Source: a virus (Duplodnaviria > Heunggongvirae > Uroviricota > Caudoviricetes). Taken from it: a stretch of 24,401 bases of DNA. The stretch spans positions 1 to 24,401 of IMG/VR virus record IMGVR_UViG_2802429219_000006; one strand, written 5' to 3'. Position numbers and translations under genes: made by a program. This document shows positions 3,309 to 24,401 of the stretch, piece after piece. Below the pieces are notes generated by a model that was given only the letters and a program-made list of their open reading frames with translations, made no database searches and was not told the DNA's origin. Numbering within the stretch: position 1 is the first letter of the stretch; each line of letters begins with the position of its first letter.

Positions 3309-3326
3309 AATCAGGCAGTGATATTT

Positions 3327-4138: not shown

Positions 4139-4141
4139 ACG

Positions 4142-4339: not shown

Positions 4340-4382
4340 GAGTAATCTCCATGCCATTACAAATACTGTTCTGTTGATACAA

Positions 4383-4415
4383 AAAGCCCCGAACTGTTCC
4401 AGCAGCCGGGGCTTT
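4383..4415. terminator. GC-rich hairpin with T-tract, candidate intrinsic terminator (mainly for the minus strand)
   Basis: AAAGCCCCG-aactgttccagcagc-CGGGGCTTT. On the minus strand the stem is followed by TTTTTGT. It lies between the stop of the spike gene (4455) and the next gene. Confidence 0.45.
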
Positions 4416-4454
4416 CGCTTTATGAGATAGAATTTAAAGTGAAATGAACCGGAA

Positions 4455-5168: not shown

Positions 5169-5182
5169 TCCCGCACCTCCGA

Positions 5183-6190
5183 TCAGTTAAATGCATCAGT
5201 GTTAATTATTGCCGCCGCAGTAAACACTGTAACCCATGCATCGCCATCTGCCGTTAAAAACGAACCGATATGGCGGACTGACGTAATCTGAAATAACCCT
5301 GAAAATGTTACCAATGAATTAGTGAGCGCCGATGACTGTGTGATAGCAGACATCAAAATGGAGGATGTACCAGAAAACATTCTTTCTGGAAGACTGACAA
5401 TATCACCACAGCAAATATCCCCACGCAGCGGACACTTAAAGGTCATTTCCAGAGGCGCCGACCACGTAGGTTGCCCAAGTAGCTCCCATGCCTCTATTTT
5501 TTTTGGTGAGCTGCTTTTTGTGTTATCAAATATACGAATAGTGCCTGACTGAACTGTTATTCTGACTCCGGTGTAACGTTCATCACGAATGATATTTAAT
5601 GACCAACTTCTAATCGCCGCTGCCAGTGATGTGATGTTTTTATATACTATTGGTTCATCTTCTGAAAGGATAAGATTATCACTTATAGTGCATTCTATTT
5701 TTTTATCAGGAAAAGCGTCACACAACACACGAGTAAGCACGTTCCCCAGTGTCTCTCCTTTCTTGCCGTAACCACAAATAGAAATCATTTTCCCATCAAT
5801 TGTGCGCGTTGGAGTTGGATTAATAATAAGATTCAGCGACTGATTAGTTCCAATCCAGTTCCCATAGGCTGCCAGTACTTCTCCATTAATAATTTCTCCC
5901 TGCTGTGACTTATTAGCTAACGGTAAACCATCGGTAAAACCTGCATACAAACTTACGAGACATCCTTTCAGATTAACTGCCTGAGTTAGCATACTCATTG
6001 GCAATCCGTAGAGCGCCAGCATTGTTCCTGATGTTGTGACATCATATCCAACCACAGTAACATCAAACTCAATATGCAAAGCGCATCCTGGTGTTTTACT
6101 GCTATCAAACGGACCAATTTTATTATTGTTCTTGTCCACAGGTGGTTGTTGTGTATCTGGTTTGGTAATAATAAGTTTATAATAACGCAT
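5183..6190 (-). CDS. Putative baseplate hub or tail structural protein
   Basis: 335-codon ORF, tightly packed in the tail operon; its start overlaps the stop of the upstream gene. Function assigned by position only. Confidence 0.45.
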   Translation of the reverse strand: MRYYKLIITKPDTQQPPVDKNNNKIGPFDSSKTPGCALHIEFDVTVVGYDVTTSGTMLALYGLPMSMLTQAVNLKGCLVSLYAGFTDGLPLANKSQQGEIINGEVLAAYGNWIGTNQSLNLIINPTPTRTIDGKMISICGYGKKGETLGNVLTRVLCDAFPDKKIECTISDNLILSEDEPIVYKNITSLAAAIRSWSLNIIRDERYTGVRITVQSGTIRIFDNTKSSSPKKIEAWELLGQPTWSAPLEMTFKCPLRGDICCGDIVSLPERMFSGTSSILMSAITQSSALTNSLVTFSGLFQITSVRHIGSFLTADGDAWVTVFTAAAIINTDAFN

Positions 6191-6456
6191 CAGGAAATCT
6201 CGAACTGGTTAGAACTGGCGCGATAAACTATCTTTCCCGGAGCAAGAGGTAACGCCAGATTAATATCAAAATTATCAGGTGATGGCACCACAGGAACAAA
6301 ACTGATTATATCCCCATTTTCATTCTGTAATTTCAAATAATAACGTTGTGCATAAATATTATATGGCAGAGTTGCCTGAATGTTTACTCCGCCAACTGTT
6401 GCCATGAAACTGAATGGTTCATCCATCCCGGGGGTAAATACAATTCTCTCTTGCAT
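6190..6456 (-). CDS. Small tail structural protein (unknown function)
   Basis: 88-codon ORF between two tail genes, translationally coupled. Confidence 0.45.
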   Translation of the reverse strand: MQERIVFTPGMDEPFSFMATVGGVNIQATLPYNIYAQRYYLKLQNENGDIISFVPVVPSPDNFDINLALPLAPGKIVYRASSNQFEIS

Positions 6457-6466
6457 ATATTCCCTT

Positions 6467-7120
6467 TTAAAATTTTGGTATTGGAGGGATTAAATCGCCA
6501 TTAGCTTTCCATGTCGCTTTCCCCGGTGTTCCTTTTTCAAACTTGCTCATAATATTGTTGAGTGTTTGCGTTACCGATGACGTTGTGATTAGTGGTTGCT
6601 CAAACTCTATTTGCCAGGTGTGCTGAACTTGTTTATTTTGTTCGGAAAGCCCTGATACATCTATAAATGATCGCATCAGGCAGTCTGTATAAATATATGA
6701 AGGAGTTAATACAATATATCTTCCTCCTTTGTCATTATGCATTTCCAGAAAAATTTTCAGTGCTGCAAATGTAATTCCTTTTGTAATGTATCCGCCATCT
6801 TCTGTTGATACCGGACGAACCATTTGCATAACAACACGATTAGGTTTCTTTACTACTGAATTTGCAGCTGTAATCTGGTTGTAAAAATTCAGATTACAAA
6901 TATCCTGCTGAATTAGTGTTGTTCCAGGCATAGGAGTAAATGCAGCCGTCGCTCCATTCAACTTTCCATGCAGCAAGCCATTTACAATACTTAATCCCTC
7001 AGTGAATAAAGCAACAGGAATTATTCCACCCGGTATTTTTTCCGCAATTCCACCTTGCAAAAGGATAGGAGATGTCTGAAACGCAAGTTTAAAAACACTC
7101 CCCACAACCCCCAGCGACAT
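6467..7120 (-). CDS. Tail structural protein directly downstream of the tape measure gene
   Basis: ORF 6467-7126 in the track. I prefer the ATG at 7120, which has a GAGGTG Shine-Dalgarno and sits 2 nt after the tape measure stop. Confidence 0.45.
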   Translation of the reverse strand: MSLGVVGSVFKLAFQTSPILLQGGIAEKIPGGIIPVALFTEGLSIVNGLLHGKLNGATAAFTPMPGTTLIQQDICNLNFYNQITAANSVVKKPNRVVMQMVRPVSTEDGGYITKGITFAALKIFLEMHNDKGGRYIVLTPSYIYTDCLMRSFIDVSGLSEQNKQVQHTWQIEFEQPLITTSSVTQTLNNIMSKFEKGTPGKATWKANGDLIPPIPKF

Positions 7121-7122
7121 AA

Positions 7123-9219
7123 TCACCTCGTCAAAAATTGTTGCTGGCCCACAACCTGGGCATCGAAGTTATCTCCAGGTTTTCTAAGAATCTCAAGCTG
7201 AATAAGGGCGCGCCCGTCAGGATTACTGGCAAGTACCTGCTGGGCATTTAGTAATTTACCTTCAAGCATCGGCCTCTGCTCTCTCATGGCTGGTATCTGT
7301 GCCATGAGCTTAAGGAGATAATCCACTGTTTCACTTTTAAGTCTCAGGGTATTATCTTTACCTACAGCAGCATTGCCTCCATTATACTGGGCCAGAACTT
7401 TTGCAATATCACCACCATAACGCTTCATGCTATCAGTAAGATACCTGGCGGCTGCATGTGTTGACTTTATTGGATCAAAAACATCATTTCCCACCAGCCC
7501 ATAAGCTTTTGCTGTTTCTGGAATAAATTGAAATAAACCTTTTGCACCAGCTTTGCTTATTGCATTTGGATTCCATCCTGATTCTTTTTGGGCTATTGCC
7601 GACATCATATTCTCAGGTAACAATGACGCCCGATTTACCTTTCTTACATATTCCTGCAATCCGTTTGCAGTCGCCACTCCCGGAATATCCATAGCGATTT
7701 CAGGCGTTCCCTGAACGGTATTTTTACGCCCAAGATCGGTATCAATACCTATCCAGCGAAGCGCATCACCAACATTTCTCTTGGTGTAGTCCCATGATGA
7801 ATTTGCCGAGGCAATGATATTCTCGTGATCTTTATACGCATAAGCACCATAAGCCATTGCCGCAGAGATCAACGGATGCCTCATCATCGCAGTTACAACC
7901 GCACTCGCCACGCCAGTGAAAGCCCCACTTCCTCCGGCAATAACCGCTGCCCCAAAAAGCCAGGGATGCTCCGCCGCAAAGCCAACAAACCCGCCAAGTG
8001 CCTTAGTGACCTTTGCAACATTTCCGGCGAAATTATTCAGGTCGTTATAAAAATCCGGGCTATTTACGTACTTACCAAGTTTATCCAGACCCGTTTCAAC
8101 ATCCGTCAGAATCCTTTTAAAGTTCTCACCGTTCATGAAATTCAGGGCAGCATTCGTGATGCCATTAGAAATTCTGATTAAGGGATATGCATTCCCGGCC
8201 AGCGCCCCCTGAAATCCACTGGTAAGCCGATCCCAGTTATTTTCTAAGTTACTGGTAAGATTCTGATACTGACTTGTATGTCCAGATGTGAGCAACGAGT
8301 CATTCTGAGAAGCCCGCAATAAAAACTCTTTATTGAGTTCAGGTATTTTGTCCTGATATTTGACTAACTGGTTAGTAAGACCAAAATTTACCCATCCAAG
8401 CCCCATTCCTCTGAAATTGCTCTGGGTAAGACCAGTTCCCTGATATTCCTTTGCCAGCGCTGCAACCTTTTTCAGGAATACAGGCAGGTTTTCAGTCGCG
8501 TTTTTATCAGGATTAAGCCCCAGATTAAGCAGGCCGACACGGGCAGGATGCGCTATATCATTTTGTGCGGCTGCCAGTGTATTGAGCACATTGCCAACAC
8601 CGGAAAAATAAGGCGAATAGGTACTCTCTGCCGCCTTTAATTCTCCCGGCGTTGCCATCAGCTCATCTGCATTTTTCTGTTTCTCTACAACATTACGAGC
8701 CATCATGCCAAAGCCAAACGGCCCGGCAACGCCCATAACCGCAAGTTTTGTCCCCCACGATACGGTAGTTTTAAACAGGTTGTTTAATCTCGAAGTGGTC
8801 GTCCGTAGCGTAGAATTGATCTGCTTGTAAGTTTTCAGCGTCTGTTTGGCGTTTTTCCCCAGCCCGCTGAGGTACTTATCAAACATCGTTTCGCCGCGAC
8901 CTTTATAGTTGCTCACCAGCGAATCAGGTGTTTTTCCGCTGCCAACAAAGCGCCCTTTTTCATCCCTTAAACGTCCATCAGTGGACGCAGTCGGAACTGG
9001 AGCAGGTGAAGATGGTTTCCTGGGAGCCTGATTGGCTTCTCCGCCTGTAGTTGTCTGCCGGGCGCCACCTCCCTGACCTGTATTTGAAGGTATTTTAAGC
9101 GGTGTCCCGGCAGGGCCAATCATCAACCCGTTGCGATATTTTTCAAATACCGCCTCGAGTCGTTTGAGTTGTTCCTCATTAATGTCCAGCGTAAGAACTG
9201 GCATCTGATTACCAGCCAT
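7123..9219 (-). CDS. Tail tape measure protein with C-terminal lytic transglycosylase (SLT) domain
   Basis: About 698 codons; Gly/Ala-rich hydrophobic segment (GGFVGFAAEHPWLFGAAVIAGGSGAFTGVASAVVTAMM) typical of tape measure proteins. C-terminal ...AIAQKESGWNPNAISKAGAKGLFQFIPETAKAYG is the catalytic ES / GLMQ-type motif of family 1 lytic transglycosylases. Located after the sheath, tube and chaperone genes. Confidence 0.8.
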   Translation of the reverse strand: MAGNQMPVLTLDINEEQLKRLEAVFEKYRNGLMIGPAGTPLKIPSNTGQGGGARQTTTGGEANQAPRKPSSPAPVPTASTDGRLRDEKGRFVGSGKTPDSLVSNYKGRGETMFDKYLSGLGKNAKQTLKTYKQINSTLRTTTSRLNNLFKTTVSWGTKLAVMGVAGPFGFGMMARNVVEKQKNADELMATPGELKAAESTYSPYFSGVGNVLNTLAAAQNDIAHPARVGLLNLGLNPDKNATENLPVFLKKVAALAKEYQGTGLTQSNFRGMGLGWVNFGLTNQLVKYQDKIPELNKEFLLRASQNDSLLTSGHTSQYQNLTSNLENNWDRLTSGFQGALAGNAYPLIRISNGITNAALNFMNGENFKRILTDVETGLDKLGKYVNSPDFYNDLNNFAGNVAKVTKALGGFVGFAAEHPWLFGAAVIAGGSGAFTGVASAVVTAMMRHPLISAAMAYGAYAYKDHENIIASANSSWDYTKRNVGDALRWIGIDTDLGRKNTVQGTPEIAMDIPGVATANGLQEYVRKVNRASLLPENMMSAIAQKESGWNPNAISKAGAKGLFQFIPETAKAYGLVGNDVFDPIKSTHAAARYLTDSMKRYGGDIAKVLAQYNGGNAAVGKDNTLRLKSETVDYLLKLMAQIPAMREQRPMLEGKLLNAQQVLASNPDGRALIQLEILRKPGDNFDAQVVGQQQFLTR

Positions 9220-9512
9220 CACAATACTCCTGCGGGATTTTTAAATTTGAGCAGCTCGCGAAACTGAGCTGCTGTTTTTACATTCAAACCGGAATCTGCA
9301 CAGATGTCTCTGAATCCGGCTCCGGCTGAGTAGTCGAGGATGTCGCTAATGATGTGTTCACCGTCGCGCCAGAACTGGCGGCAGACTTCAATGTCGGCAA
9401 GGAAGCAATCCAGTCCGTAAGATTCAAGGATGAGTATTGAGTGCTCCAGATTCCATTGACCACATCCAGAGTCCCTTTCGCCTGCTCCGGCGAATTTATT
9501 GACGAGACGCAT
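9219..9512 (-). CDS. -1 frame ORF overlapping the 3' part of the chaperone gene; probable frameshift extension (GT-like product)
   Basis: 97-codon ORF whose ATG sits immediately 3' of a U8 run in the mRNA; it ends in a TGATG overlap with the tape measure start. Its translation looks protein-like, while the 0-frame tail of the overlapping ORF is Ser/Thr-rich and low in complexity. Confidence 0.45.
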   Translation of the reverse strand: MRLVNKFAGAGERDSGCGQWNLEHSILILESYGLDCFLADIEVCRQFWRDGEHIISDILDYSAGAGFRDICADSGLNVKTAAQFRELLKFKNPAGVL

Positions 9513-9901
9513 GTAAAAAAAACGAGTTCACCCGCAACATCATCCAGCTCAACGATTTCACGCTCCAGCGCCATATCAAGAGGGATTGTGTCGTAACCTT
9601 TGCCCTCCACCGGATAAACAAGGTTTGCCAGGCGAATTATTTCGTTCACCAGCGTATTACGAACTCCCTTATCATCGTCCCAGATACCGGAATCACGCGA
9701 GATCCGCTCCAGCATCAGAAAAGCAACGCGCGGACCCGCAACGACGCCAAGACCTTCAGAAAAAATGGCAGAAAAGGTTTTACTCAGAATGAAGAAATGC
9801 TCTTTAAACACCTCTTTGCTGATCGGCGTGGCATGGATCCAGCCATTACCCTTTTCTGTCCGGACAGGAATAATCAGATTCAGATTTCGGGAGATTTTCA
9901 T
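9284..9901 (-). CDS. Tail assembly chaperone (G-like, 0-frame product)
   Basis: ORF 9284-9913 in the track. I prefer the ATG at 9901, which overlaps the tube gene stop (ATGA). Position between tube and tape measure. Confidence 0.5.
   Translation of the reverse strand: MKISRNLNLIIPVRTEKGNGWIHATPISKEVFKEHFFILSKTFSAIFSEGLGVVAGPRVAFLMLERISRDSGIWDDDKGVRNTLVNEIIRLANLVYPVEGKGYDTIPLDMALEREIVELDDVAGELVFFTCVSSINSPEQAKGTLDVVNGIWSTQYSSLNLTDWIASLPTLKSAASSGATVNTSLATSSTTQPEPDSETSVQIPV
9512..9523 (-). other. Candidate -1 programmed ribosomal frameshift site (U UUU UUU slippery run)
   Basis: The plus strand has AAAAAAAA at about 9515-9522. On the mRNA the 0-frame reads GUU UUU UUU ACA; a -1 slip continues into UAC AUG CGU..., the 97-codon frame. 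Confidence 0.45.
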
Positions 9902-10341
9902 ACCAGATCCCACATTTCAGAGTTGATGTAATACGTACCGGTAATGGTGATGGCCACACCCGGCTCGCCCCCGGCGAAGGTCATATCCTGCACATTGGTG
10001 ATCGCCGTGTTATAGATATCGAAGTCACCAAACACCGTGCTGTCGCTATACACTTTTGCGTCGCCGATCGTGGCGTTTTTTTCCCATTGCGCCTTGAATT
10101 GTTTTCCCAGCGCCTGGCTACGCAGCAGATGAACACGCGCCTGTAAAATCATGTATGGCTGCGGCGACTGCACGGCTCCCGTCATAGCGGGTAAAAACTC
10201 CGTGATATTGCCCTGAAAGGACAATTCGACGCCTTCTTTTGCCAGAAATGAGGCGGACACATTCAGTTCGGAATGAGAGGTGAATTTAACGCTGGCGCGA
10301 ACCCGGTTAAGGGTGCCAACGGGGATCATTGGATTAGGCAC
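9898..10341 (-). CDS. Tail tube protein (putative)
   Basis: 147-codon ORF immediately after the sheath gene and before the chaperone and tape measure genes; size typical of myovirus tube proteins. Confidence 0.55.
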   Translation of the reverse strand: MPNPMIPVGTLNRVRASVKFTSHSELNVSASFLAKEGVELSFQGNITEFLPAMTGAVQSPQPYMILQARVHLLRSQALGKQFKAQWEKNATIGDAKVYSDSTVFGDFDIYNTAITNVQDMTFAGGEPGVAITITGTYYINSEMWDLV

Positions 10342-10352
10342 GGTTCAGTCCC

Positions 10353-11690
10353 TCACGAAAGCTGCATTGTCACATTGATGTTAAAAATGATTTCGACAAA
10401 TCCACGCATCGGCGTATAGGTGGCCGACAGGCCTGCATAACGCCCGATACCGTAATCATTCGGATTGGTGTTGATATACTGGCGGAAAGACACTGCATCG
10501 ACGACAGGCTGGCCGTTGACCAGGCCGTAAGATACGCCCGTATTGAACACCGCCTGCGCGACCTGCTGCAGACGGTCGATCCCGTCCTGGTTGTAGTAAA
10601 GCGGGTTAATTGGGTTATTGCTGCCGTTGATCACCGTGTTGGCGAGCTGCATATCGACATTAATCTGCACCCAGTCCACGGAATACCAGTACGTCATATC
10701 GTTACCGTCACTGGTAACGCCTTTCACCAGAATCGTGTTGGAAATTCCACCCTCAGCCCCCGTGTCGACATAGTTAATATTCTGCTTCGTCATCGTGGCC
10801 AGAATGGAATTTTTGCCCTTGTGAGCATTTACCGCCTGCAGATAGCGAAATGCCATCGGCGGCACCTTGTTGATTTCTGAAGGTGATGCGGAAACATAGT
10901 TCCACATTACGGCTGCTGCCGCGTTTGTCGCCGGGTACGTATCATCCGCCGTTGCAATAACCGACTTAATACCGGCATAAGGCGAAACGTAATTCGTGTC
11001 GTCCGGCGTTTTCGTCAGCACGAAAAAATACTGCATCGCTTCGTTGGCGGTGTGGAGTTTTGCCAGACTGATAAACTCTGCGTCACCATCCCACGGCTGC
11101 GGCACCAGATACGCATAAAAACGCAGGAGCGGATCTTCCATATAAGCTTTCAGTGCAGCGATTTCCTTACTGACCCCGCCTTTCTGTACTCCCAGCTCCA
11201 GCAGGTAAATCCCAACTGAATTTCCCTGGGCAAAAAACGTGTTTACTGCCGTCACCAGATTTTCACTGCCGACAATGGAAAACTGCCCCAGTGTCACTGG
11301 CGAACCGGAAAGCTGAGAATCAGCAATCGTCCAGGTCAGTGTTTTTTCATCCGTGACGGTAGCAGTATATTCGCCATTCCACGCGTCGGGCGAACACCCG
11401 GAAACAACAATTTTCACCTCAGAACTGTTTTCGCGTCGGATGTTGCTCCCTTCCGGAAGCGTCATCGTAACGGTGACGTTTGCCGCAGATTTTCCTGCGG
11501 CAGCCGCCGACAACGCAGCAATCGGATTTCTTACCAGATCGTTAATATCCTGATTGCTGGTGAGTAATACAGGTTTCCCCGGCTCATGAGTCGTGGAGCC
11601 AAACGAGAGAACCGCAGACATCTGCTGCAAATTCGAGGGAATGGCCCCGATGGTCTGGGACACATTCACCGTGACGATATTAAACCCCAT
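10353..11690 (-). CDS. Tail sheath protein (putative)
   Basis: 445-codon ORF at the sheath position of a contractile-tail module. Not motif-verified. Confidence 0.55.
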   Translation of the reverse strand: MGFNIVTVNVSQTIGAIPSNLQQMSAVLSFGSTTHEPGKPVLLTSNQDINDLVRNPIAALSAAAAGKSAANVTVTMTLPEGSNIRRENSSEVKIVVSGCSPDAWNGEYTATVTDEKTLTWTIADSQLSGSPVTLGQFSIVGSENLVTAVNTFFAQGNSVGIYLLELGVQKGGVSKEIAALKAYMEDPLLRFYAYLVPQPWDGDAEFISLAKLHTANEAMQYFFVLTKTPDDTNYVSPYAGIKSVIATADDTYPATNAAAAVMWNYVSASPSEINKVPPMAFRYLQAVNAHKGKNSILATMTKQNINYVDTGAEGGISNTILVKGVTSDGNDMTYWYSVDWVQINVDMQLANTVINGSNNPINPLYYNQDGIDRLQQVAQAVFNTGVSYGLVNGQPVVDAVSFRQYINTNPNDYGIGRYAGLSATYTPMRGFVEIIFNINVTMQLS

Positions 11691-12634
11691 TATTTAACCT
11701 CATATTTACAAATAACTTTTTCAATCAACTGCCGGGATATTTCCCGGGCGGTGCTCTGGTAGTAATTCACGTCAAAATCGACAATCTTTTTCTTCGCCAG
11801 AGCGTTGATTTCAACCTGTCCCGACTTTGCGTCCTGAACCACCGGAATATTGGTTACACCAAACTTTTCCTCCTCCAGCGCCCTGTTCACCACCGAGTCG
11901 ACAAGATCCAGCGCCATTTTGTTGCTGAATCCGTAAAGCGTCAGGCGAACCGAATCCTGGACGAGCTGGAATCGCTCACCACCGAAAACAACGGGAGCCA
12001 CCTGCAACGGAATACTGTTGCGAACATCCACCGCGATATACGGAGGACGAAGGTTCTGCGGTACCAGGTAAGACGGATACACGGTCGCGGCATCTTTCAT
12101 TTGCAGCCAGATCGGGATGCTGTTGGAGATGATCTGCTCGTCGCTGATATCCTCCTCGCAGTCGATAATCTGAGAGCGCATGGTTGGTAAAATCGCCATA
12201 CCGCGATAATGAAAAATACCCGACTGCTGATAACGGCTCTCCATTCGTGAAAAAGCGAACTGGACGCCGCCGTACTCACCGAGATAGATCGCATCGGGAT
12301 TTTCCACATTAAAATCATCAACCTGCTGAACAGGCGTGAAAATAATGTTGTTCACATCCTTCGAGACAGACTCGTCCTGAATCGCAATAACCTGACGATG
12401 CAGGCTGCCTTTGATTTTCAGACGAGTTGGTGACTCAATATTCAGGCGACACAGTTCATCGCAACTGATGATTTCCGCATTAACCCAATAGACAAAGCCA
12501 TCCAGCGGCAGAACCTGCCGGACATAGAGCCTGAACGTGATTTCCTGGTCTGACGAGATGGTTTCAACTGCGGATTTAAGAACGGACGAGAGCTGCGAAC
12601 TGTGCTGTTCGGCTAATTCCTCAAGACTCGGCAT
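11690..12634 (-). CDS. Structural protein between head and tail modules (unknown function)
   Basis: 314-codon ORF with ATG start; its stop overlaps the sheath gene start (TAATG). Confidence 0.5.
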   Translation of the reverse strand: MPSLEELAEQHSSQLSSVLKSAVETISSDQEITFRLYVRQVLPLDGFVYWVNAEIISCDELCRLNIESPTRLKIKGSLHRQVIAIQDESVSKDVNNIIFTPVQQVDDFNVENPDAIYLGEYGGVQFAFSRMESRYQQSGIFHYRGMAILPTMRSQIIDCEEDISDEQIISNSIPIWLQMKDAATVYPSYLVPQNLRPPYIAVDVRNSIPLQVAPVVFGGERFQLVQDSVRLTLYGFSNKMALDLVDSVVNRALEEEKFGVTNIPVVQDAKSGQVEINALAKKKIVDFDVNYYQSTAREISRQLIEKVICKYEVK

Positions 12635-15068: not shown

Positions 15069-15686
15069 TTAAATTAAAAACAGGCCGCACGGTTTGCCGT
15101 TTTCCCAGACAACGTTACCGCCATCCTCTTTTTTCACCGTCAGGTTTCCGTCAACTGAAACCATCAGCAGCTTAATATCCACTTTCGGATTAGCTCCGGG
15201 TGATCCCGAATAAACATCAACCATGTTTTTCGTCAGATCCCACACAAAACCACTGGCAGCAACAGTGTTATTGCCATCAGCCAACGCAACAACTTCTGCA
15301 CTGACAGGGAGAGGAATGCGGGCACCTGAGCCAACGCGGTAATAGTGAATAAAGCCACCCGCGAGATATAACGGCACCGGATTATCCGGCGTGGTAATGC
15401 CATGAAATGCCTGATTAAAGACAGTAAAGGCGTTACAGGCGTCCTTCGTGGCTTGCTTAATTACCGCGCCGTTAACGCTGTCTTTCGCGGGAGCAATGCA
15501 CTCCATAACTCCAACGCCACCCCATACCGGTTCAGTGATTTTGCTGTCCAGTCGACCGGAGCAAAGTTGCAGACGAATTGCCGGATCATCCTGCGCATCC
15601 CCCTGCATCAGCCCACGGGATTCGACGTTAAAAAGGCCACCAAACGCCCCACGGTTTTTAAACGGATGAAAGTTAATATCAGCCAT
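15069..15686 (-). CDS. Head protein (decoration or minor capsid, unknown)
   Basis: 205-codon ORF between the scaffold and capsid genes. Confidence 0.45.
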   Translation of the reverse strand: MADINFHPFKNRGAFGGLFNVESRGLMQGDAQDDPAIRLQLCSGRLDSKITEPVWGGVGVMECIAPAKDSVNGAVIKQATKDACNAFTVFNQAFHGITTPDNPVPLYLAGGFIHYYRVGSGARIPLPVSAEVVALADGNNTVAASGFVWDLTKNMVDVYSGSPGANPKVDIKLLMVSVDGNLTVKKEDGGNVVWENGKPCGLFLI

Positions 15687-15963
15687 TGTTCAGGCTCCCT
15701 TGAGTGTTAATTTTTGCCAGACGACGCCCCGGAATTTTGAAGGCACTCAGCCAGACGTTCGGATCGCCCTGATATTCAGTAATGCGACGCCCGGCTTCGT
15801 CGTTGCGGATGCGTTTATGCAGTTGCCCCTGCGTACTCATCATTTCTTTTTCGATGGACTGACGGGCGGCACTGAAAATTGCGTCTTCAAGCACAGCCAG
15901 CGTTGCAGAATCCGCAATCGCGCGAATATTGACGTCCTTATGTGCCGGAGAGTGTTTCTGCAT
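15679..15963 (-). CDS. ORF in the -1 frame of the scaffold gene 3' end; probably the true C-terminal part of the scaffold/protease protein
   Basis: 94-codon ORF with no Shine-Dalgarno. Its frame stays open a further ~40 codons upstream of the ATG with protein-like sequence (...GKNAPAPFSGENALDYRKRALIA-MQKHSPAHK...). Confidence 0.35.
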   Translation of the reverse strand: MQKHSPAHKDVNIRAIADSATLAVLEDAIFSAARQSIEKEMMSTQGQLHKRIRNDEAGRRITEYQGDPNVWLSAFKIPGRRLAKINTQGSLNNG

Positions 15964-17000
15964 AGCGATAAGCGCACGCTTGCGGTAGTCCAGCGCATTT
16001 TCACCAGAAAACGGTGCTGGCGCGTTTTTACCGCAGGCACTGAATGCAGAGTCGGCTTTTCCTGCGCTTCTGCCAAGGCAGAATCATTGCGTTCTTTTTC
16101 TGCCTCCTCGTCGGCCTTACGCTGTTCTTCTGCTTCGGAATCAGCCTTTGCTTTCTCCTCAGCGTCTTTAGCTGCCGCCTCGTCAGCTTTGGCTTTTTCT
16201 TCCGCCTCCTTTGCCGCAGCTTCATCAGCTTTACGCTGTTCCTCTGCGGCTTCATCGGCTTTGGCCTTTTCTTCGGCCTCTTTTTTCGCCTGCTCTTCAG
16301 CATCCGCCCGCGCTTTGTCCCGCTGTTCCAGTGAGTCCATGCGCGTGACTACTCCATCGATTTTCTGATTAATGCCGCTCAGGGCATCGTTCACCACCCC
16401 CTGTAACAGGGCCTGGAGTTCTTCTTTTTCCATCTCAATTTCACCTGTATTTGTCACTTCAACCCCTGCGGGGATCCGGTCTTTATCCCACACGCCCAGC
16501 GAGCCGTGGTCTTTCGTCACCAGGGCGATGTGATCAACAAGGAAAGGAACGCCTTCGATTAAAAAATTGGTGTCACCTTCCTGTACTTCCACATTTCCTG
16601 ATGTGCTGTTGAACACCACCGACGGGCTTGTCGAAACATCCCCCTCGGTGATTTCTTCAACAATGCTCTGGAGGTAAACGCGGCACACCGCCCATACCTC
16701 ATCACCCCGGATATACGGCAGCATGACGCTACCGACGATCCGCGATTTAAAGTCCTCCTCCGTCAGAACTGCGTCGTCAGGATGGTTTGCGATAACCGGA
16801 AGGCCATTGCATCGCCTTAAAAACTCCTCGTTCAGATAGAGCTTTGGATCACGCCAGACGTGCTCTTTCAGCCCGGCGCGATAGGCAAGCCCGGTTCCGG
16901 TTATTCGCAAATTCACCAGCCACATGTTGGAGAATTTCACCGGAGACGGTACGGTTCCGTCCCTGATGCGTTCTGCCACTTCAAGCTCGGTTAAACTCAC
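15840..17000 (-). CDS. Prohead scaffold / protease-like protein with Ala/Glu/Lys coiled-coil repeats; apparent frame break near the 3' end
   Basis: 386-codon ORF with GTG start at 17000 and a GGAGAAGGG Shine-Dalgarno. Contains the repeat AEEKAKADEAA / AEEQRKADEAA. The last ~55 codons (…RQHRFLVKMRWTTASVRLSLCRNTLRHIR…) look like out-of-frame translation. Confidence 0.55.
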   Translation of the reverse strand: MSLTELEVAERIRDGTVPSPVKFSNMWLVNLRITGTGLAYRAGLKEHVWRDPKLYLNEEFLRRCNGLPVIANHPDDAVLTEEDFKSRIVGSVMLPYIRGDEVWAVCRVYLQSIVEEITEGDVSTSPSVVFNSTSGNVEVQEGDTNFLIEGVPFLVDHIALVTKDHGSLGVWDKDRIPAGVEVTNTGEIEMEKEELQALLQGVVNDALSGINQKIDGVVTRMDSLEQRDKARADAEEQAKKEAEEKAKADEAAEEQRKADEAAAKEAEEKAKADEAAAKDAEEKAKADSEAEEQRKADEEAEKERNDSALAEAQEKPTLHSVPAVKTRQHRFLVKMRWTTASVRLSLCRNTLRHIRTSIFARLRILQRWLCLKTQFSVPPVSPSKKK

Positions 17001-17814
17001 GTTTGCCCTTCTCCGTTAAAAATTCGTCGGGTAGTTTCTGAGGGGCGTAGATCGGCAGTGCATCGCAACTGCAATAAACCTCCTCCCCGGCAGCAGTGAT
17101 TTCGTCATAAAAACCATATACGGGCTTAATCAGCCCCTGCTCCAGCGCCCACGAATCGCGGAGGAGATAAATTTTCTCGTCGCGCTCTTTGTGGTCCTGT
17201 CGGTATTTGTAGCCCGGACGCCGCCAGTTAGAATGCCAGCGCAGAGCAATCGCTCCACTCTGAACAGCCAGCAGATACTTAACGTTGCTTGCCAGCTTAT
17301 GCCCCTGGTCAATTGCCACCCGACGACTGATAAAATCCATATCCTTCACGGATTTCTGAAACCCGGACTTCACTTCCCGGCGATCAATTTCGCTCACCCC
17401 GTCAGGCGGAATGGACGTAACCCACCCCTGAAAACGCTGTATGGTTTTCTCGATGGCCTGTTCGCGGTTGAGTTTTATCAGGTTGGCACTGGCGAAAATT
17501 CGCCTGTCGAGTTCCTTGCGAAACTCAGGTTTCAGTTTTTCAACAGTGATTTTTTTTGGGCCGTCAGGAGGCTGATCCCGTAATGCCCCGCCGTCGATGA
17601 CAAGACGGCTGTAGATAGCGGTGAGGTGTTTTCTGGCTACGGTATCATCAGGGGTTTCTCGCTGAGCGGCTACACGGAGTTTCCGGCACCATTCGAGCAA
17701 TGATTTTTCGCTATCCCACCCGCGATTTACGTAGTAGTTAACGGCATCCGTCAGAACCTCATACAGCGTCCTGATCCGTTTCTTCTTCCTCACCGCCCGG
17801 CTGGAAATTGCCAT
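16981..17814 (-). CDS. Head morphogenesis / minor head protein (putative)
   Basis: ORF 16981-17952 in the track. I prefer the ATG at 17814 (MAISSRAVRKKKR...), which has an AGGAGA Shine-Dalgarno and overlaps the acidic portal C-terminus by about 56 nt. Confidence 0.45.
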   Translation of the reverse strand: MAISSRAVRKKKRIRTLYEVLTDAVNYYVNRGWDSEKSLLEWCRKLRVAAQRETPDDTVARKHLTAIYSRLVIDGGALRDQPPDGPKKITVEKLKPEFRKELDRRIFASANLIKLNREQAIEKTIQRFQGWVTSIPPDGVSEIDRREVKSGFQKSVKDMDFISRRVAIDQGHKLASNVKYLLAVQSGAIALRWHSNWRRPGYKYRQDHKERDEKIYLLRDSWALEQGLIKPVYGFYDEITAAGEEVYCSCDALPIYAPQKLPDEFLTEKGKREFNRA

Positions 17815-19195
17815 CAGGCGTCTCCTGCTTCGGTGGTTCATAATTCGCCAGCGCGTCCACATCAATGATGAGTGGAGCTTCGCCATAGGTTTGCGTGGCA
17901 TTAACAAGGCTTGCCAGCCATTCAGCGAGGGCGGCGCGGTTTTCAGGATCAACCTGTGGCGACACGGCAGAGAAAAGTGCTATCGCCTGTTGAATCACTT
18001 TACTGTCGCTTTCCCGGCGTTTGTCCGGCGACTCCTCAACCAGCTCCTGCCACGTCGCGGTAAATTCACGTCGCCACTGGTAAAACGTGGTTTTATAGTC
18101 GTCTGTTATGATGTCCGGGTAATCATTTTTCAGCGACTGATAAAATTCCTCGTTCCAGGCGATGTACTGCACCAGGCGTTCGAAATAATCCATCACAGGT
18201 TCAATCTGCTGGCGTACACCATCGATATACTGGCTGATAGCTTTCGAGTCCTCCTTACCTTCACCGAATCCGTTACTGAACGCTTCTTCCTTGATAATAA
18301 TGGCCGGAACGTCACTCCCGGCGGCAATATCAGCAATGATGTTGTCGCGGGATGTATTCAGCGCCCCGTCGATGTTTTGCAGGTTCAGTGAACTTACGTC
18401 TTCGTCTTTTCCAATACTCAACACGCCTTTATTTTTGGCGGCTTTCACGTTTTCCCTTTTACGCCCCGTGGCAGCAGCCATGATCCCGTCAATTTTCGAA
18501 CCGTTCTGCACAACTTTAGCCACCAGTACGCCTGCCTTCTGGCTGACGAGATCATTCGCCTCCATCGTATTGATATAGGATTTCAGGGAATAAAGAACTC
18601 GCTGAAACACGCTTCGCCCGGTGAATCCGAACGATGAACTCTGAAACTCCAGATAAATCGGTGTGCCGTTGAAGATTTTCAGTGTGCGTGACGGATGCCA
18701 GTCTTTTCCGCCAATCTTCAGTTTTTTATTGGCTTCCTGGAAAAACGGGCTGTTGGGGTTCTGGTCAGTCACCATCGAACCGGAAGCGTTCAACGGGTCC
18801 CACGCGTTGATATACACGTCATCTTCTGTCAGTCCGAACGTCGGAAGCGGTTCACGACATGAAACACTGTCGGTGCCCACGCCGATCGCTGCGGCACCGT
18901 AGCAACGAGACAGAAAAAACAGATTTTTAATCTTCTCGTTAACCTTCATACGTTCCCATACCTCCTGGAAACGCCGCACAACCCGCTCGTCAGGGTCTGT
19001 CTCCACGTTGTACTGGCGCGGCTTACACATCGCCATAAGTATGGGTTTTTCGACAAGTTTCCCGCCCAGCGGGTGGTACTGCCACAGCAGTTTACACAGT
19101 TCATAGCCAATGTCGGTTCCCGGCTGAATTTCTTCAGCCTCAAGAATGCGCATCAGCGAAGAACTGAGATTTACAGAAATCTCGATCTCAGCCAT
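17759..19195 (-). CDS. Portal protein
   Basis: 478-codon ORF immediately downstream of the large terminase gene, with an acidic C-terminal tail (GGEEEETDQDAV). Position and size are typical. Confidence 0.7.
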   Translation of the reverse strand: MAEIEISVNLSSSLMRILEAEEIQPGTDIGYELCKLLWQYHPLGGKLVEKPILMAMCKPRQYNVETDPDERVVRRFQEVWERMKVNEKIKNLFFLSRCYGAAAIGVGTDSVSCREPLPTFGLTEDDVYINAWDPLNASGSMVTDQNPNSPFFQEANKKLKIGGKDWHPSRTLKIFNGTPIYLEFQSSSFGFTGRSVFQRVLYSLKSYINTMEANDLVSQKAGVLVAKVVQNGSKIDGIMAAATGRKRENVKAAKNKGVLSIGKDEDVSSLNLQNIDGALNTSRDNIIADIAAGSDVPAIIIKEEAFSNGFGEGKEDSKAISQYIDGVRQQIEPVMDYFERLVQYIAWNEEFYQSLKNDYPDIITDDYKTTFYQWRREFTATWQELVEESPDKRRESDSKVIQQAIALFSAVSPQVDPENRAALAEWLASLVNATQTYGEAPLIIDVDALANYEPPKQETPDGNFQPGGEEEETDQDAV

Positions 19196-22197: not shown

Positions 22198-22323
22198 CCT
22201 TCAGTGGGGGAGAAGAGCATCCCCCACATTCATATATCAACCAGATTAGATAACAGAATTTCATGCTTCCTAGACAATGGCGCCCCTTCATTTTTCAGCG
22301 AAATATTCTGCTCTTACGGGCGA

Positions 22324-22506
22324 TCAGTTCTGCAGACACTGCCGGACACTATCAACAATTTCGCAGACCTGAGAAGCTGTATCGAAAAGCTGGCGCGCCT
22401 TATCTAGGCTGACGCACCCCACCAATAAAAAAGGCACCAGTATCGCTACCAGTGCCCATTTTGCCGCCGCTCGCGGCATTCTGTGTGTCCAGTGTTTTCG
22501 GCTCAT
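22324..22506 (-). CDS. Small putative lipoprotein
   Basis: 60-codon ORF. N-terminus has basic residues, a hydrophobic stretch and an LLVGC lipobox; the mature part would be about 29 aa with two further Cys. Its ATG lies 1 nt after the stop of the upstream 37-codon ORF. Confidence 0.45.
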   Translation of the reverse strand: MSRKHWTHRMPRAAAKWALVAILVPFLLVGCVSLDKARQLFDTASQVCEIVDSVRQCLQN

Positions 22507-22507
22507 A

Positions 22508-22621
22508 TCACCACCAACGCACAGCCCAAATCAGAACAGCGACCGCCACAAGGCGAATTGCAAAGGCCGCAGCCCTTGTCAAATCAAGGCTCGCGGGAGT
22601 TTCCACTTCAATACCTTTCAT
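22508..22621 (-). CDS. Small transmembrane peptide (37 aa), not in the ORF track
   Basis: My own translation of the minus strand: ATG at 22621, MKGIEVETPASLDLTRAAAFAIRLVAVAVLIWAVRWW, stop TGA then T then the ATG of the lipoprotein ORF. GAGG Shine-Dalgarno-like element upstream. Confidence 0.35.
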   Translation of the reverse strand: MKGIEVETPASLDLTRAAAFAIRLVAVAVLIWAVRWW

Positions 22622-22712
22622 AATGGACAACCTCAAAAAGAATCTTTTATACTTTCCCACGAGGATTTTCTCCGTACTCACTACTCACAATTTCCTCTTT
22701 GACGTGAAAACT

Positions 22713-22747
22713 AAAAACCCCGGACTGTTCCAGCAGCCGGGGTTTTT
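22713..22747. terminator. Bidirectional intrinsic terminator
   Basis: AAAAACCCCGG-actgttccagcag-CCGGGGTTTTT: an 11-bp stem flanked by an A-tract and a T-tract, so it gives a hairpin plus U-run on both strands. Located just downstream of the endolysin gene. Confidence 0.6.
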
Positions 22748-22840
22748 GCTATCTGATGCTGTACCCCTTACTTTCGCTCATAGTAACCCCAGAAAAGAGC
22801 CTCCGTGAGTTGAGGGTGTTCAGCACTTCAGCGTCAGTTT

Positions 22841-23386
22841 TTAAACTGCTACGCGCTCTTTCATCCAGCCGTAGACAAACGACTCGTTGGCCTCGCGTTT
22901 TTCTGCCAGCTCCAGATAGCGGTCGCCCTGCGTGCAATTCAGCGCCTTCAGCATCACCAGTTCGCCGTCTTTGCCGCGTTTTTGCAGATAAGTCCGTAGT
23001 GCATTAATCGTGCGGGGGCCGATACGCCCGTCTGCGTCCATATCCGGGAACAATTTGCCTTGCAGGTTGAAAACGTTCAGCCAGCGTTGGAGCATTTTCG
23101 ATGCTACGGACGGCCCCATATTCACACCGGTATCACACAACTCTGCAGCAATATCAGAGGATAATGCGGCCACCTGATCAAAGCGTGGTCCGAACCAGTA
23201 ATCCGCCTCAAGGATTTCCAGCGCCTGTTCGCGTGTCAGGTCACGCATATCGCCCTGATATCCGTGAGCGCGGGCGACTTTTTCCGTAATACCCCATTTT
23301 GTCGGTCCGCCTTTATCATCCGGGTGATTGACGTAACCGCCCTCTTTTCCCAGAACTTCGTCAAAAATTTCATCTTTCGACTTCAT
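22841..23386 (-). CDS. Endolysin, GH108-type lysozyme with peptidoglycan-binding C-terminal domain
   Basis: ORF 22841-23407 in the track. I prefer the ATG at 23386 (MKSKDEIFDEVLGKEGGYVNHPDDKGGPTKWGIT...), the typical GH108 N-terminal motif; the downstream ...ADGRIGPRTINAL... resembles a PG-binding domain. The start is 1 nt after the upstream membrane protein's stop. Confidence 0.8.
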   Translation of the reverse strand: MKSKDEIFDEVLGKEGGYVNHPDDKGGPTKWGITEKVARAHGYQGDMRDLTREQALEILEADYWFGPRFDQVAALSSDIAAELCDTGVNMGPSVASKMLQRWLNVFNLQGKLFPDMDADGRIGPRTINALRTYLQKRGKDGELVMLKALNCTQGDRYLELAEKREANESFVYGWMKERVAV

Positions 23387-23387
23387 A

Positions 23388-23681
23388 TCAGCGCCTTCGT
23401 AATACAAAGATTTTTGAAACGTTCCCGCGTGCGCGAATCACCAACACGCAGAACAGCAGATTAAGCCCCACCGCCAGCCAGTTCGCCGCTAACGGGCGAC
23501 CGCACAGATAGCTGAGGGGCGCAAAGGCATAAAGCAGCATCAGCAGCCAGGCCAGCCATGACATCAGCGGTTTATGTCTGGAATCACGGCGACGATAAAA
23601 AAAGAGCGTCAGCACGATAACCGTGCATAACGCCACATTCAGCAATCCGGGAAGGTTACTTAACATTATCGCCTCCTCCAC
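23388..23681 (-). CDS. Membrane protein with about 3 predicted TM helices (holin or antiholin candidate)
   Basis: 97-codon ORF directly upstream of the endolysin. Hydrophobic segments LPGLLNVALCTVIVLTLFFY, LMSWLAWLLMLLYAFAPLSYL and LAANWLAVGLNLLFCVLVI; basic C-terminus. Confidence 0.5.
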   Translation of the reverse strand: MEEAIMLSNLPGLLNVALCTVIVLTLFFYRRRDSRHKPLMSWLAWLLMLLYAFAPLSYLCGRPLAANWLAVGLNLLFCVLVIRARGNVSKIFVLRRR

Positions 23682-24048
23682 TCTTCAGGCGGGAGAGCAG
23701 ACAGGACATCAGTGATATAACGTCCTGCCTGTGCACAAAGGACAGCACTTTTACCGACAATACAGACACCAGCACTGCACACAATGCGTCAACAGGTGCA
23801 CCATCAAACTCTGTATGCTTTACCAGCCAGGATGCCAGAACCTCTGCGCCCAGCACGCCGATAATGAACGACACCAGAAAATGCGCTGCCACACGCCAGG
23901 CTGAAAGCGCCTGCGGAATTGTTGCCACAAATAACGCCCCGGCGAACGCACCAAACACAATCCCGAAATCCGTTCCGGTAAACAGCCCGTACACCGTCGC
24001 CCCGCCGAGCGCCGCAGCCGTACCGGAACCGGATAAGGGTTCAGACAT
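23656..24048 (-). CDS. Membrane protein (holin candidate)
   Basis: 130-codon ORF with an AGGAGA Shine-Dalgarno and several hydrophobic segments (e.g. FGIVFGAFAGALFVATIPQAL, FLVSFIIGVLGAEVLASWLV). First gene of the lysis cluster. Confidence 0.5.
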   Translation of the reverse strand: MSEPLSGSGTAAALGGATVYGLFTGTDFGIVFGAFAGALFVATIPQALSAWRVAAHFLVSFIIGVLGAEVLASWLVKHTEFDGAPVDALCAVLVSVLSVKVLSFVHRQDVISLMSCLLSRLKSGGGDNVK

Positions 24049-24065
24049 ACTTTTTTCTCCTATAA

Positions 24066-24095
24066 ATAAAAAAGGGCCACCAGCGGCCCGTAAAA
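24066..24095 (-). terminator. Short GC hairpin flanked by T-tracts on the minus strand, immediately upstream of the holin-candidate RBS
   Basis: Plus strand AAAAAAGGGCC-accagc-GGCCCGTAAAAAAA. On the minus strand the 5-bp GC stem is followed by TTTTTTATTTATA and then AGGAGA and the ATG. Confidence 0.4.
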
Positions 24096-24141
24096 AAACA
24101 ACACCCCGTCAAAGGCACCCGCAGATGCCTTTTGTGTGATG

Positions 24142-24294
24142 TTATTCAGATTTATGCAGTAAAGGCCGGAGCACAACCAGCGCCATCGCCACCAGCACAC
24201 CATCTGCCAGCACCGACATCAGCCGTCCGGTGAAATCCACCACCACTACCAGAAACAGCAGGATGGCAGCCAGTACAAGGCGCGCACTTTTCAC
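24142..24294 (-). CDS. Possible small hydrophobic peptide (50 aa, GTG start)
   Basis: My own translation: VKSARLVLAAILLFLVVVVDFTGRLMSVLADGVLVAMALVVLRPLLHKSE. Its GTG overlaps the stop of the partial upstream gene. Not in the ORF track. It may instead be untranslated leader. Confidence 0.25.
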   Translation of the reverse strand: MKSARLVLAAILLFLVVVVDFTGRLMSVLADGVLVAMALVVLRPLLHKSE

Positions 24295-24401
24295 AGGTAC
24301 TGCTCCAGCGGTAGCTGAAGCGCCTGAGCAATTTTCTTGAGCTGTGCTTCTTCATCCGGACCAATGCCATCCTGGTCAGCGATATCCAGACACAGGCACA
24401 G
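24291..24401 (-). CDS. 3' end of an unidentified gene entering from the right edge
   Basis: Minus-strand frame open from the window edge: ...LCLCLDIADQDGIGPDEEAQLKKIAQALQLPLEQYL then stop. The start is outside the window and I do not recognise the family. Confidence 0.35.
   Translation of the reverse strand: MCLCLDIADQDGIGPDEEAQLKKIAQALQLPLEQYL

What the first reader, a model, noticed from the sequence alone, without database searches (positions are those of the whole stretch)
15679..16090. Apparent frame break in the scaffold/protease gene, possibly at an A5 run
The 386-codon frame ends in about 55 residues of implausible sequence, while the -1 frame is open and protein-like from about 16083 down to 15679 but has no start codon or Shine-Dalgarno of its own. 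The simplest reading is one gene whose frame switches in the overlap. A candidate slip site is GUA AAA ACG (plus strand TTTTT at about 16025-16029), which would join ...SVPAVK to NAPAPFSGENAL.... It could be a programmed frameshift, a genuine inactivating mutation, or a homopolymer sequencing error.
Basis: partly seen in the sequence, partly recalled or inferred. Interest (0 to 1): 0.45.

Follow-up and report, generated by a model that had tools for sequence, protein, structure and literature searches.

The report
One-base deletion breaks prophage scaffold gene
A prophage head-assembly (scaffold/protease-like) gene in this Escherichia isolate is split into two reading frames by the loss of one C that every relative still has. 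It is an ordinary strain-specific frameshift mutation, or less likely a sequencing error, and not a programmed frameshift.

Summary
The window is the whole contig PTSA01000041.1 of Escherichia sp. MOD1-EC6163 and carries a Rac-SA53-like prophage head and tail module on the minus strand.

- **Site of the break.** Relatives read CAGGCAAAAG where the window reads CAGG^AAAAG. One C is missing between window 16061 and 16060. The proposed A5 run (16025-16029) is identical in all relatives.
- **Relatives are intact.** Two phage records and every E. coli complete genome inspected encode one uninterrupted 430 or 440 aa DUF2213 protein. It ends in the same stop/start overlap with the next gene.
- **Repair test.** Re-inserting the C gives a 440-aa protein identical to one recorded on 61 contigs.
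- **Age.** All six window-private substitutions are synonymous in the restored frame, four of them downstream of the break. The deletion is therefore recent or artefactual.
- **Rarity.** The 386-aa product is on record only for this strain, in the NCBI and Logan assemblies.
- **No frameshift signal.** There is no canonical slippery heptamer, no unusual RNA structure and no conservation of the two-frame layout.
- **Effect.** Residues 314-386 are out-of-frame junk, and the conserved 126-residue C-terminal domain is lost.

Interest is low.

The parts
15679..17000 (-). The whole disrupted gene. It encodes a DUF2213 (PF09979, Pa193 gp24-like) putative head scaffolding / protease-like protein. It is 1322 nt here and 1323 nt (440 codons plus stop) in intact relatives.
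   Evidence: Pfam DUF2213 scores 27-28 bits against a cut-off of 22. PHROG 6216 matches at E = 3e-206.
16060..16061 (-). Site of the one-base deletion. The minus strand reads CAGG^AAAAG and relatives read CAGGCAAAAG. Codon 314 changes from GCA (Ala) to GAA (Glu), and the frame is lost from there.
   Evidence: Alignment A1 and coordinates. All 60 listed E. coli matches span 82 bases for the 81 query bases.
15840..16061 (-). Out-of-frame tail of the 386-aa product: residues 314-386 (EKPTLHSVPAVKTRQHRF...SPSKKK) plus the TGA stop at 15842-15840.
   Evidence: No homologue carries this tail: the other two members of its 90% cluster do not have it.
15679..16059 (-). Displaced -1 frame segment encoding the conserved C-terminal domain. 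It corresponds to residues 315-440 of the intact protein (KADSAFSACGKNAPAPFSGENALDYRKRAL...QGSLNNG) plus the stop.
   Evidence: There are 25 invariant columns across 20 homologues, starting at ADSA immediately after the deletion.
16025..16029 (-). It is not the junction.
   Evidence: It is identical in the window and in all three aligned relatives, which are in frame across it.
16084..16086 (-). TGA stop in the -1 frame. It bounds the upstream end of the open -1 frame.
15961..15963 (-). First start codon (ATG) in the -1 frame, the start of the mechanical 94-aa ORF. The sequence just upstream shows no Shine-Dalgarno-like motif.
15679..15686 (-). ATGGCTGA overlap. The restored-frame stop (TGA, 15681-15679) overlaps the ATG (15686) of the next head gene (205 aa). 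Relatives have the same layout.
   Evidence: CDS 1551-2873 and 2866-3483 in L001.
16140..16232 (-). Degenerate 42-nt tandem repeat inside the Ala/Glu/Lys-rich central segment. Relatives differ in length in this central segment (430 or 440 aa).

Best explanation
This is one gene, broken by the loss of a single C between window 16061 and 16060 on the minus strand. The gene encodes the DUF2213 (Pa193 gp24-like) head scaffolding / protease-like protein of a Rac-SA53-like prophage in Escherichia sp. MOD1-EC6163.

Translation starts normally at the GTG at 17000 and reads the DUF2213 domain and the Ala/Glu/Lys-rich central segment correctly up to residue 313. It then runs out of frame for 73 codons and stops at 15840. 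The conserved 126-residue C-terminal domain (15679-16059) is left untranslated in the -1 frame.

I take the deletion to be a real, very recent, strain-specific mutation. It probably makes the prophage defective in head assembly. That last step is an inference from the putative scaffolding role of Pa193 gp24, not something shown here.

It is not a programmed frameshift, and the A5 run plays no part.
For: - **Position of the break.** A DNA alignment with two phage records and one E. coli chromosome shows a single one-base gap at CAGG^AAAAG. The A5 run is unchanged.
- **Relatives are intact.** They annotate one CDS of 1323 nt (or 1293 nt) from the same start to the same stop overlap.
- **Complete genomes.** All 60 listed E. 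coli complete genomes that hold the 81-nt stretch span 82 bases. This includes all 48 matches above 95% identity.
- **Repair test.** Inserting the C gives a 440-aa protein identical in every residue to P0004, which is recorded on 61 contigs.
- **Substitution pattern.** Against 13 relatives (8 distinct DNAs) the window has six private substitutions. All are synonymous in the restored frame, and four lie downstream of the break. Three relatives that were not chosen for protein identity show 7-8 synonymous and 0-1 non-synonymous differences downstream.
- **One profile spans both halves.** PHROG 6216 covers both parts of the protein.
- **Assembly quality.** Every other STEC308 protein that finds a match in the window aligns as a single piece with no frame change, in all but one case over its full length. 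Only this gene splits into two frames.
- **Support for a real deletion rather than an assembler artefact.** The exact 386-aa product is recorded from both the NCBI assembly and Logan. Logan holds a second contig of this strain under run SRR3988017. The missing base is not in a homopolymer.
Against: - No reads could be inspected, so an error in the read set itself cannot be excluded.
- The two assemblies most likely derive from the same sequencing run, so they are not independent samples of the DNA.
- The allele is a singleton. It has no related match in 185,579 species-representative genomes, IMG/VR or JGI metagenomes. That fits a recent mutation and an artefact equally well.
- The functional consequence is inferred, not shown. 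No solved structure or known fold could be assigned to the lost domain.
Confidence: 0.7

Rival explanations
1. Sequencing or assembly artefact. The strain's DNA actually reads CAGGCAAAAG, the gene is intact, and the missing C exists only in the deposited consensus.
For: - The allele is a singleton among all collections searched.
- The repaired protein is identical to a common allele.
- All window-private substitutions are synonymous in the restored frame, which is exactly what an intact gene would show.
- Other assemblies also yield C-terminal fragments of this gene with frame breaks at other positions (P0019, P0020, P0023). Some of these look like assembly noise.
Against: - The missing base is a lone C, not part of a homopolymer.
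- Every other STEC308 protein that matches the window aligns without a frame change, so the assembly is otherwise clean.
- The same truncated product is recorded from a second assembly source, Logan.
Confidence: 0.25
2. Translational compensation, a 'saviour' -1 frameshift. The deletion happens to create CAG_GAA_AAG. On this, tRNA-Lys could slip from AAG back onto AAA and continue in the -1 frame. The result would be a full-length protein differing only by Ala314Glu.
For: - The sequence shows directly that a -1 slip on A_AAG at 16060-16057 would read ...AEAQEKADSAFSACGK....
- A_AA.G is the most shift-prone tetramer in E. coli (PMC4066793, read).
Against: - In the same study, tetramers without a stimulator were barely above background (0.147% against 0.112%). 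They reached 0.26-5.6% only with a strong downstream pseudoknot.
- The downstream 102 nt here fold no better than shuffles (z = -0.27).
- G_GAA_AAG is not a canonical X_XXY_YYZ heptamer.
- Relatives need no frameshift, so nothing at this site has been selected for slippage.
Confidence: 0.03
3. Two genuine, separately expressed genes: a 386-aa DUF2213 protein and a small C-terminal-domain protein. This would resemble the split arrangement found in the satellite-like islands.
For: Free-standing 194-aa homologues of the C-terminal domain (58-65% identity) and separate 200-223 aa DUF2213-only genes exist. They occur even in the same strain.
Against: - Those free-standing genes have their own about 70-residue N-terminal region and their own start, and they sit in a different element in the opposite order.
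- Here the -1 frame has no start before 15963, which would remove 32 conserved residues, and that ATG has no ribosome-binding site.
- The 73-residue 0-frame tail has no homologue.
- All same-module relatives are fused.
Confidence: 0.02

Closest known systems
Intact allele of the same gene: the 440-aa DUF2213 protein P0004 (e.g. EAC1206386.1), WP_000059664.1 in E. coli OkiPb01675, ALP46870.1 of phage Rac-SA53 and XBA92474.1 of vB_Apl-pPE4 (both labelled 'TolA protein')
   Same: - Same start, same stop/start overlap with the next gene, and same head module (portal, head-morphogenesis, this gene, 205-aa gene, major capsid).
- 96-98.6% nucleotide identity.
- The repaired window protein is 100% identical to P0004.
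   Different: The window lacks one C at 16060/16061 and so encodes 313 correct residues plus 73 out-of-frame residues. Rac-SA53 and STEC308 carry a 30-nt shorter central segment (430 aa).
Pseudomonas phage Pa193 gp24, a putative scaffolding protein.
   Same: - The Pfam DUF2213 domain is present above the gathering score.
- The gene sits directly upstream of a small head gene and the major capsid gene, matching the Pa193 order gp24-gp25-gp26.
- Similar size (440 against 478 residues).
   Different: - There is no detectable sequence match to any PDB chain.
- The capsid-binding helix-turn-helix of gp24 (residues 286-326) could not be mapped onto this protein.
- Weak PHROG matches to 'head maturation protease' families (E = 4e-7 and 7e-5) suggest that the N-terminal domain may be a protease, but no catalytic residues were examined.
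Programmed -1 ribosomal frameshift sites of E. coli (dnaX, IS1/IS3 family: A_AAA_AAG with stimulators)
   Same: Two overlapping frames, with the downstream one in -1. An A_AAG tetramer lies exactly at the junction.
   Different: There is no canonical heptamer and no stimulatory structure. Relatives do not conserve the two-frame layout and are all in frame.
Protease-scaffold gene arrangements of other tailed phages: lambda C/Nu3, P2 gpO, herpesvirus UL26/UL26.5 (from my own knowledge, not tested here)
   Same: An N-terminal protease-like domain is followed by a helical linker and a C-terminal part, which in those systems contacts the capsid protein. The C-terminal part can also exist as its own protein, as the 194-aa family does here.
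   Different: No nested internal start was demonstrated here, and no homology to those proteins was found.

Membership tests
Frameshift-disrupted gene (pseudogene by single-base indel) | Close relatives carry one uninterrupted ORF across the break | tested here: met
   Relatives annotate a single CDS of 1323 or 1293 nt. tblastn with the STEC308 protein gives two pieces in different frames only for this gene.
Frameshift-disrupted gene (pseudogene by single-base indel) | A defined indel, not a multiple of three, accounts for the frame change, and reverting it restores the full ORF | tested here: met
   There is a one-base gap at 16060/16061. Re-inserting the C gives 440 aa identical to P0004.
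Frameshift-disrupted gene (pseudogene by single-base indel) | The indel is present in the organism's DNA rather than only in the assembly | not testable with these tools
The only indirect support is that the same product is recorded in the NCBI and Logan assemblies.
Programmed -1 ribosomal frameshift | Slippery heptamer X_XXY_YYZ, or a shift-prone tetramer, at the frame junction | tested here: inconclusive
There is no canonical heptamer. An A_AAG tetramer (GAA_AAG) sits at the true junction, but the deletion itself created it.
Programmed -1 ribosomal frameshift | The two-frame arrangement is conserved in related genomes | tested here: not met
   All relatives examined are in frame. The truncated product is found in this strain only.
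Programmed -1 ribosomal frameshift | Stimulatory element: a downstream hairpin or pseudoknot, or a suitably spaced upstream SD-like sequence | tested here: not met
   The 102 nt from the junction fold at -32.2 kcal/mol against a shuffle mean of -31.3 (z = -0.27). The only SD-like AGGA overlaps the site itself.
DUF2213 / Pa193 gp24-like head scaffolding proteins (PF09979) | Match to the Pfam DUF2213 model above the gathering score | tested here: met
   The window's 386-aa product scores 27.0 bits and the intact homologue 28.2 bits, against a cut-off of 22.
DUF2213 / Pa193 gp24-like head scaffolding proteins (PF09979) | Position in the head module, between the portal / head-morphogenesis genes and the major capsid gene | tested here: met
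   Portal (PF06381, phrog_146), phrog_324 head morphogenesis, this gene, a 205-aa gene, then a 342-aa protein that hits major head protein phrog_264. The Pa193 gene order is taken from PMC11456595.
DUF2213 / Pa193 gp24-like head scaffolding proteins (PF09979) | Helix-turn-helix that binds the capsid interior | not testable with these tools
   There is no sequence match to PDB chains. The AlphaFold model of the C-terminal domain (pLDDT 73) has no significant Foldseek match (best E = 0.31).

The most novel reading that the evidence does not exclude
The deletion-created CAG_GAA_AAG site allows enough spontaneous -1 slippage of tRNA-Lys to make a full-length Ala314Glu scaffold protein. Alternatively, the 194-aa C-terminal-domain homologue from the co-resident satellite-like island supplies the missing function in trans. 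Either way the prophage would still form heads despite the indel.
Probability: 0.03. Interest if true: 0.3.

Novelty: already known. Interest (0 to 1): 0.08.

Why it matters
It matters mainly for annotation hygiene.

- **RefSeq record.** WP_236942181.1 is listed as an ordinary 386-aa 'DUF2213 domain-containing protein', although its last 73 residues are out-of-frame sequence. Called-gene tables place a spurious 54-aa gene on part of the displaced frame. The locus should be flagged as a frameshifted pseudogene or re-sequenced.
- **Biology.** If the deletion is real, this otherwise intact-looking head and tail module has probably just lost head assembly. That would be a snapshot of the first step of prophage decay.
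- **Domain boundary.** The conserved C-terminal domain begins exactly at AQAKADSA, which is useful for anyone studying Pa193 gp24-like scaffolding proteins.

Tried and rejected
- **A5 run as the slip site.** Rejected. It is identical in relatives that are in frame.
- **Homopolymer error.** Rejected as stated, because the missing base is a single C.
- **Stimulatory RNA structure downstream of the junction.** None found (z = -0.27). There are no promoter-like or terminator-like sites in 15500-17200.
- **Gene conversion from the paralogous satellite copy in the same strain.** I looked at this as a possible source of the local cluster of differences. Rejected, because that copy's DNA differs at the same positions.
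- **Other carriers of the deletion.**
  - None among the listed E. coli complete genomes.
  - None in the 90% protein cluster.
  - An exact 23-mer scan gave 0 hits in species-representative genomes and 0 in IMG/VR.
  - The scan gave one metagenome hit (L021), which blastn showed to be unrelated DNA.
- **Function of the lost domain.**
  - No Pfam hit.
  - No PDB sequence hit.
  - The AlphaFold model has moderate confidence (pLDDT 73) and no significant Foldseek match in the PDB (best E = 0.31, TM <= 0.22).
- **Literature.** Searches for DUF2213 and Rac-SA53 gave nothing on this gene's function. Only the Pa193 paper was informative.
- **Satellite 175-aa gene.** Comparing it with the phage's 205-aa head gene showed no similarity.
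- **A caution on one comparison.** The ten loci L007-L016 were chosen because they encode the repaired protein exactly, so their all-synonymous differences hold by construction. Only the window-private analysis and the comparisons with L001, L003 and L005 are independent.
Full report
**What the window is.** The exact 386-aa product of the ORF at 15840-17000 is recorded on a 24,401-base contig, PTSA01000041.1 of assembly GCA_002965785.1. It is named as a DUF2213 protein of Escherichia sp. MOD1-EC6163. The window is therefore that whole contig.

It carries the lysis, packaging, head and tail genes of a prophage, all on the minus strand. The prophage resembles Escherichia phage Rac-SA53 and the record called Actinobacillus phage vB_Apl-pPE4, and about 80 E. 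coli complete genomes hold the same gene. Around the finding the gene order is:
- portal (PF06381, phrog_146);
- a head-morphogenesis protein (phrog_324);
- the gene in question (Pfam DUF2213);
- a 205-aa gene;
- a 342-aa protein that hits a major-head-protein PHROG.

**Checking the observation.**
- There is a GTG-started 386-codon ORF.
- The -1 frame is open from 16083 to the stop at 15679-15681.
- That frame has no start codon before the ATG at 15963, and nothing resembling a ribosome-binding site precedes that ATG.
- The A5 run is at 16025-16029.

**Where the frame really breaks.** I aligned the last 730 nt of the gene with an E. coli chromosome and the two phage records.
- The only difference that changes the frame is a one-base gap in the window. 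Relatives read GCGCAGGCAAAAGCCGAC and the window reads GCGCAGG-AAAAGCCGAC.
- On the minus strand the missing C lies between 16061 and 16060.
- The A5 run, 31 nt further on, is identical in all four sequences, and the relatives read straight through it in frame.
- The correct junction is ...SALAEAQ|(A)KADSAFSACGKNAPAPF....
- The out-of-frame tail is 73 residues (314-386), not about 55.

**It is one gene.**
- Relatives annotate a single CDS of 1323 nt (440 aa). Rac-SA53 and strain STEC308 have 1293 nt, with a 30-nt shorter Ala/Glu/Lys-rich central segment.
- That CDS runs from the same GTG to a TGA that overlaps the ATG of the next gene, ATGGCTGA.
- An 81-nt query across the break found 80 E. 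coli complete genomes. All 60 listed matches span 82 bases, including all 48 above 95% identity. None reaches 99% identity.
- Re-inserting the C yields a 440-aa protein identical, residue for residue, to a protein recorded on 61 contigs.
- A single PHROG profile (6216) covers both halves. The displaced -1 frame segment alone matches its last 119 positions at E = 7e-57.
- No homologue carries the 0-frame tail.

**How old is the break, and is it real?** Against 13 relatives (8 distinct DNAs) the window has six private substitutions in this gene. All six are synonymous in the restored frame, and four lie downstream of the deletion.

Three relatives that were not selected for protein identity show 7-8 synonymous and 0-1 non-synonymous differences downstream. 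The downstream segment therefore shows no decay as a pseudogene. The deletion is either very recent or not really in the DNA.

Points that favour a real deletion:
- the missing base is not in a homopolymer;
- every other STEC308 protein that matches the window aligns as a single piece with no frame change, in all but one case over its full length, so the assembly is otherwise clean;
- the exact truncated product is on record from both the NCBI assembly and Logan, and Logan holds another contig of the same strain under run SRR3988017.

Points that keep an artefact possible:
- both assemblies probably derive from one read set;
- the allele is a singleton. The 23-mer spanning the deletion has no hit in 185,579 species-representative genomes or in IMG/VR. 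Its single metagenome hit is unrelated DNA.

I put a real mutation at about 0.7 and an artefact at about 0.25.

**Programmed or compensating frameshift.** Nothing supports a programmed event.
- Relatives do not conserve the two-frame layout.
- There is no canonical heptamer.
- The 102 nt from the junction fold no better than shuffled sequence (z = -0.27).

One curiosity follows directly from the sequence. The deletion creates CAG_GAA_AAG, and a -1 slip of tRNA-Lys from AAG onto AAA would restore the frame with only an Ala314Glu change.

A_AA.G is the most shift-prone tetramer in E. coli. Even so, without a stimulator such tetramers were barely above background in the systematic study (0.147% against 0.112%), and they reached percent levels only with a strong pseudoknot (PMC4066793). 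Any rescue would therefore be trace level. I give this 0.03.

**What is lost.**
- *Pa193 gp24.* It is a 478-residue protein proposed as a scaffolding protein. A helix-turn-helix (residues 286-326) is seen bound inside the capsid vertices.
- *Gene order.* The gp24 gene lies close to those of the decoration protein gp25 and the capsid protein gp26, the same layout as here (PMC11456595).
- *Possible protease domain.* Weak PHROG hits to head-maturation-protease families suggest the N-terminal domain may be proteolytic. This was not tested.
- *The conserved domain.* An alignment of 20 homologues shows that the conserved C-terminal domain begins at AQAKADSA. This is exactly where the frame is lost, so the whole domain is removed.
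- *Fold.* An AlphaFold model of the domain is moderately confident (pLDDT 73). It shows three main helices, a beta-hairpin and a short helix. It has no significant match in the PDB.
- *Consequence.* That its loss abolishes head assembly is an inference by analogy with scaffolding proteins.
- *Next gene.* Ribosomes now stop 154 nt before the next gene instead of overlapping its start. This may lower its expression, although an AGGGAG lies 8 nt upstream of its ATG.

**Split homologues elsewhere.** The search with the C-terminal domain returned mostly free-standing 194-aa proteins (58-65% identical, labelled 'NUDIX hydrolase'), each followed by a separate 200-223 aa DUF2213-only gene. They lie in islands laid out as follows:
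- integrase, AlpA, AntA;
- a 470-aa AAA_25 protein;
- ProQ, PerC;
- the 194-aa gene, the DUF2213 gene and a 175-aa gene;
- variable cargo.

To me this layout resembles a phage-inducible chromosomal island. That reading rests on my own knowledge and was not tested. The same strain carries one such island on contig PTSA01000055.1.

This does not rescue a two-gene reading for the window:
- the free-standing genes have their own N-terminal region and their own start;
- they are in the opposite order and in a different element;
- their DNA does not match the window around the break.

**Verdict.** This is an ordinary, strain-specific one-base deletion, or less likely a consensus error, in a prophage head gene. 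Interest is low. The practical value is in correcting the annotation of WP_236942181.1.

Noticed in passing
L017 1770-3021 (contig PTSA01000055.1 of the same strain); L019 and L020 about 500-12400: About 12-kb islands carry split, order-swapped homologues of this phage's scaffold/protease gene. Their layout is int, AlpA, AntA, a 470-aa AAA_25 protein, ProQ, PerC, then variable cargo such as TIR/SEFIR or DUF4747. The homologues are a 194-aa copy of the C-terminal domain (58% identity) followed by a 200-223 aa DUF2213-only gene (60% identity to residues 1-186). The layout looks like a phage satellite (PICI-like), which would suggest capsid-assembly interference with Rac-SA53-like helpers. One such island sits in the same strain as the broken prophage gene.
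   Followed up: partly
P0019, P0020, P0023; P0003: Other E. coli assemblies yield C-terminal fragments of the same gene whose N-termini are in the wrong frame, meaning frame breaks at other positions. One Logan contig encodes a 528-aa fusion (…AEAQAKA|ELKGREL…) to an unrelated protein. Its junction lies within a few nucleotides of this window's deletion.
   Followed up: no
window 17759-19195 (-): RefSeq labels the relatives of this 478-aa protein 'anti-CBASS protein Acb1 family protein'. Here it matches Phage_portal_3 (PF06381, E = 3e-14) and portal PHROG 146 (E = 4e-75), and it sits in the portal position. The Acb1 name looks like an annotation carry-over.
   Followed up: partly
window 15679-17000 (-) and its homologues: Phage records name this gene 'TolA protein' (with a 'nudix' note in Rac-SA53), and the free-standing C-terminal homologues are named 'NUDIX hydrolase'. 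No Pfam NUDIX or TolA match was found. The names probably come from the Ala/Glu/Lys-rich low-complexity segment and have since been propagated.
   Followed up: partly
PP818812.1 (L003; hits H1, H108): A record deposited as 'Actinobacillus phage vB_Apl-pPE4' (host A. pleuropneumoniae) is 94.7% identical to this Escherichia prophage over 83% of the window, and 97.6% identical across this gene. Its closest relatives are E. coli prophages, so the host assignment looks doubtful.
   Followed up: no
window 16140-16291 (-); alignment A1 columns 140-169: The central Ala/Glu/Lys-rich segment contains degenerate tandem repeats (period 42, 2.2 copies). Relatives differ in length there: a 30-nt in-frame gap gives 430-aa alleles in Rac-SA53 and STEC308, against 440 aa elsewhere.
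   Followed up: partly
window 22300-24400 compared with L004 23190-25300: The lysis region is mosaic. The STEC308 M15 metallopeptidase endolysin has no counterpart in the window, and the holins are only 88-92% identical, whereas the head and tail genes are 97-100% identical.
   Followed up: no
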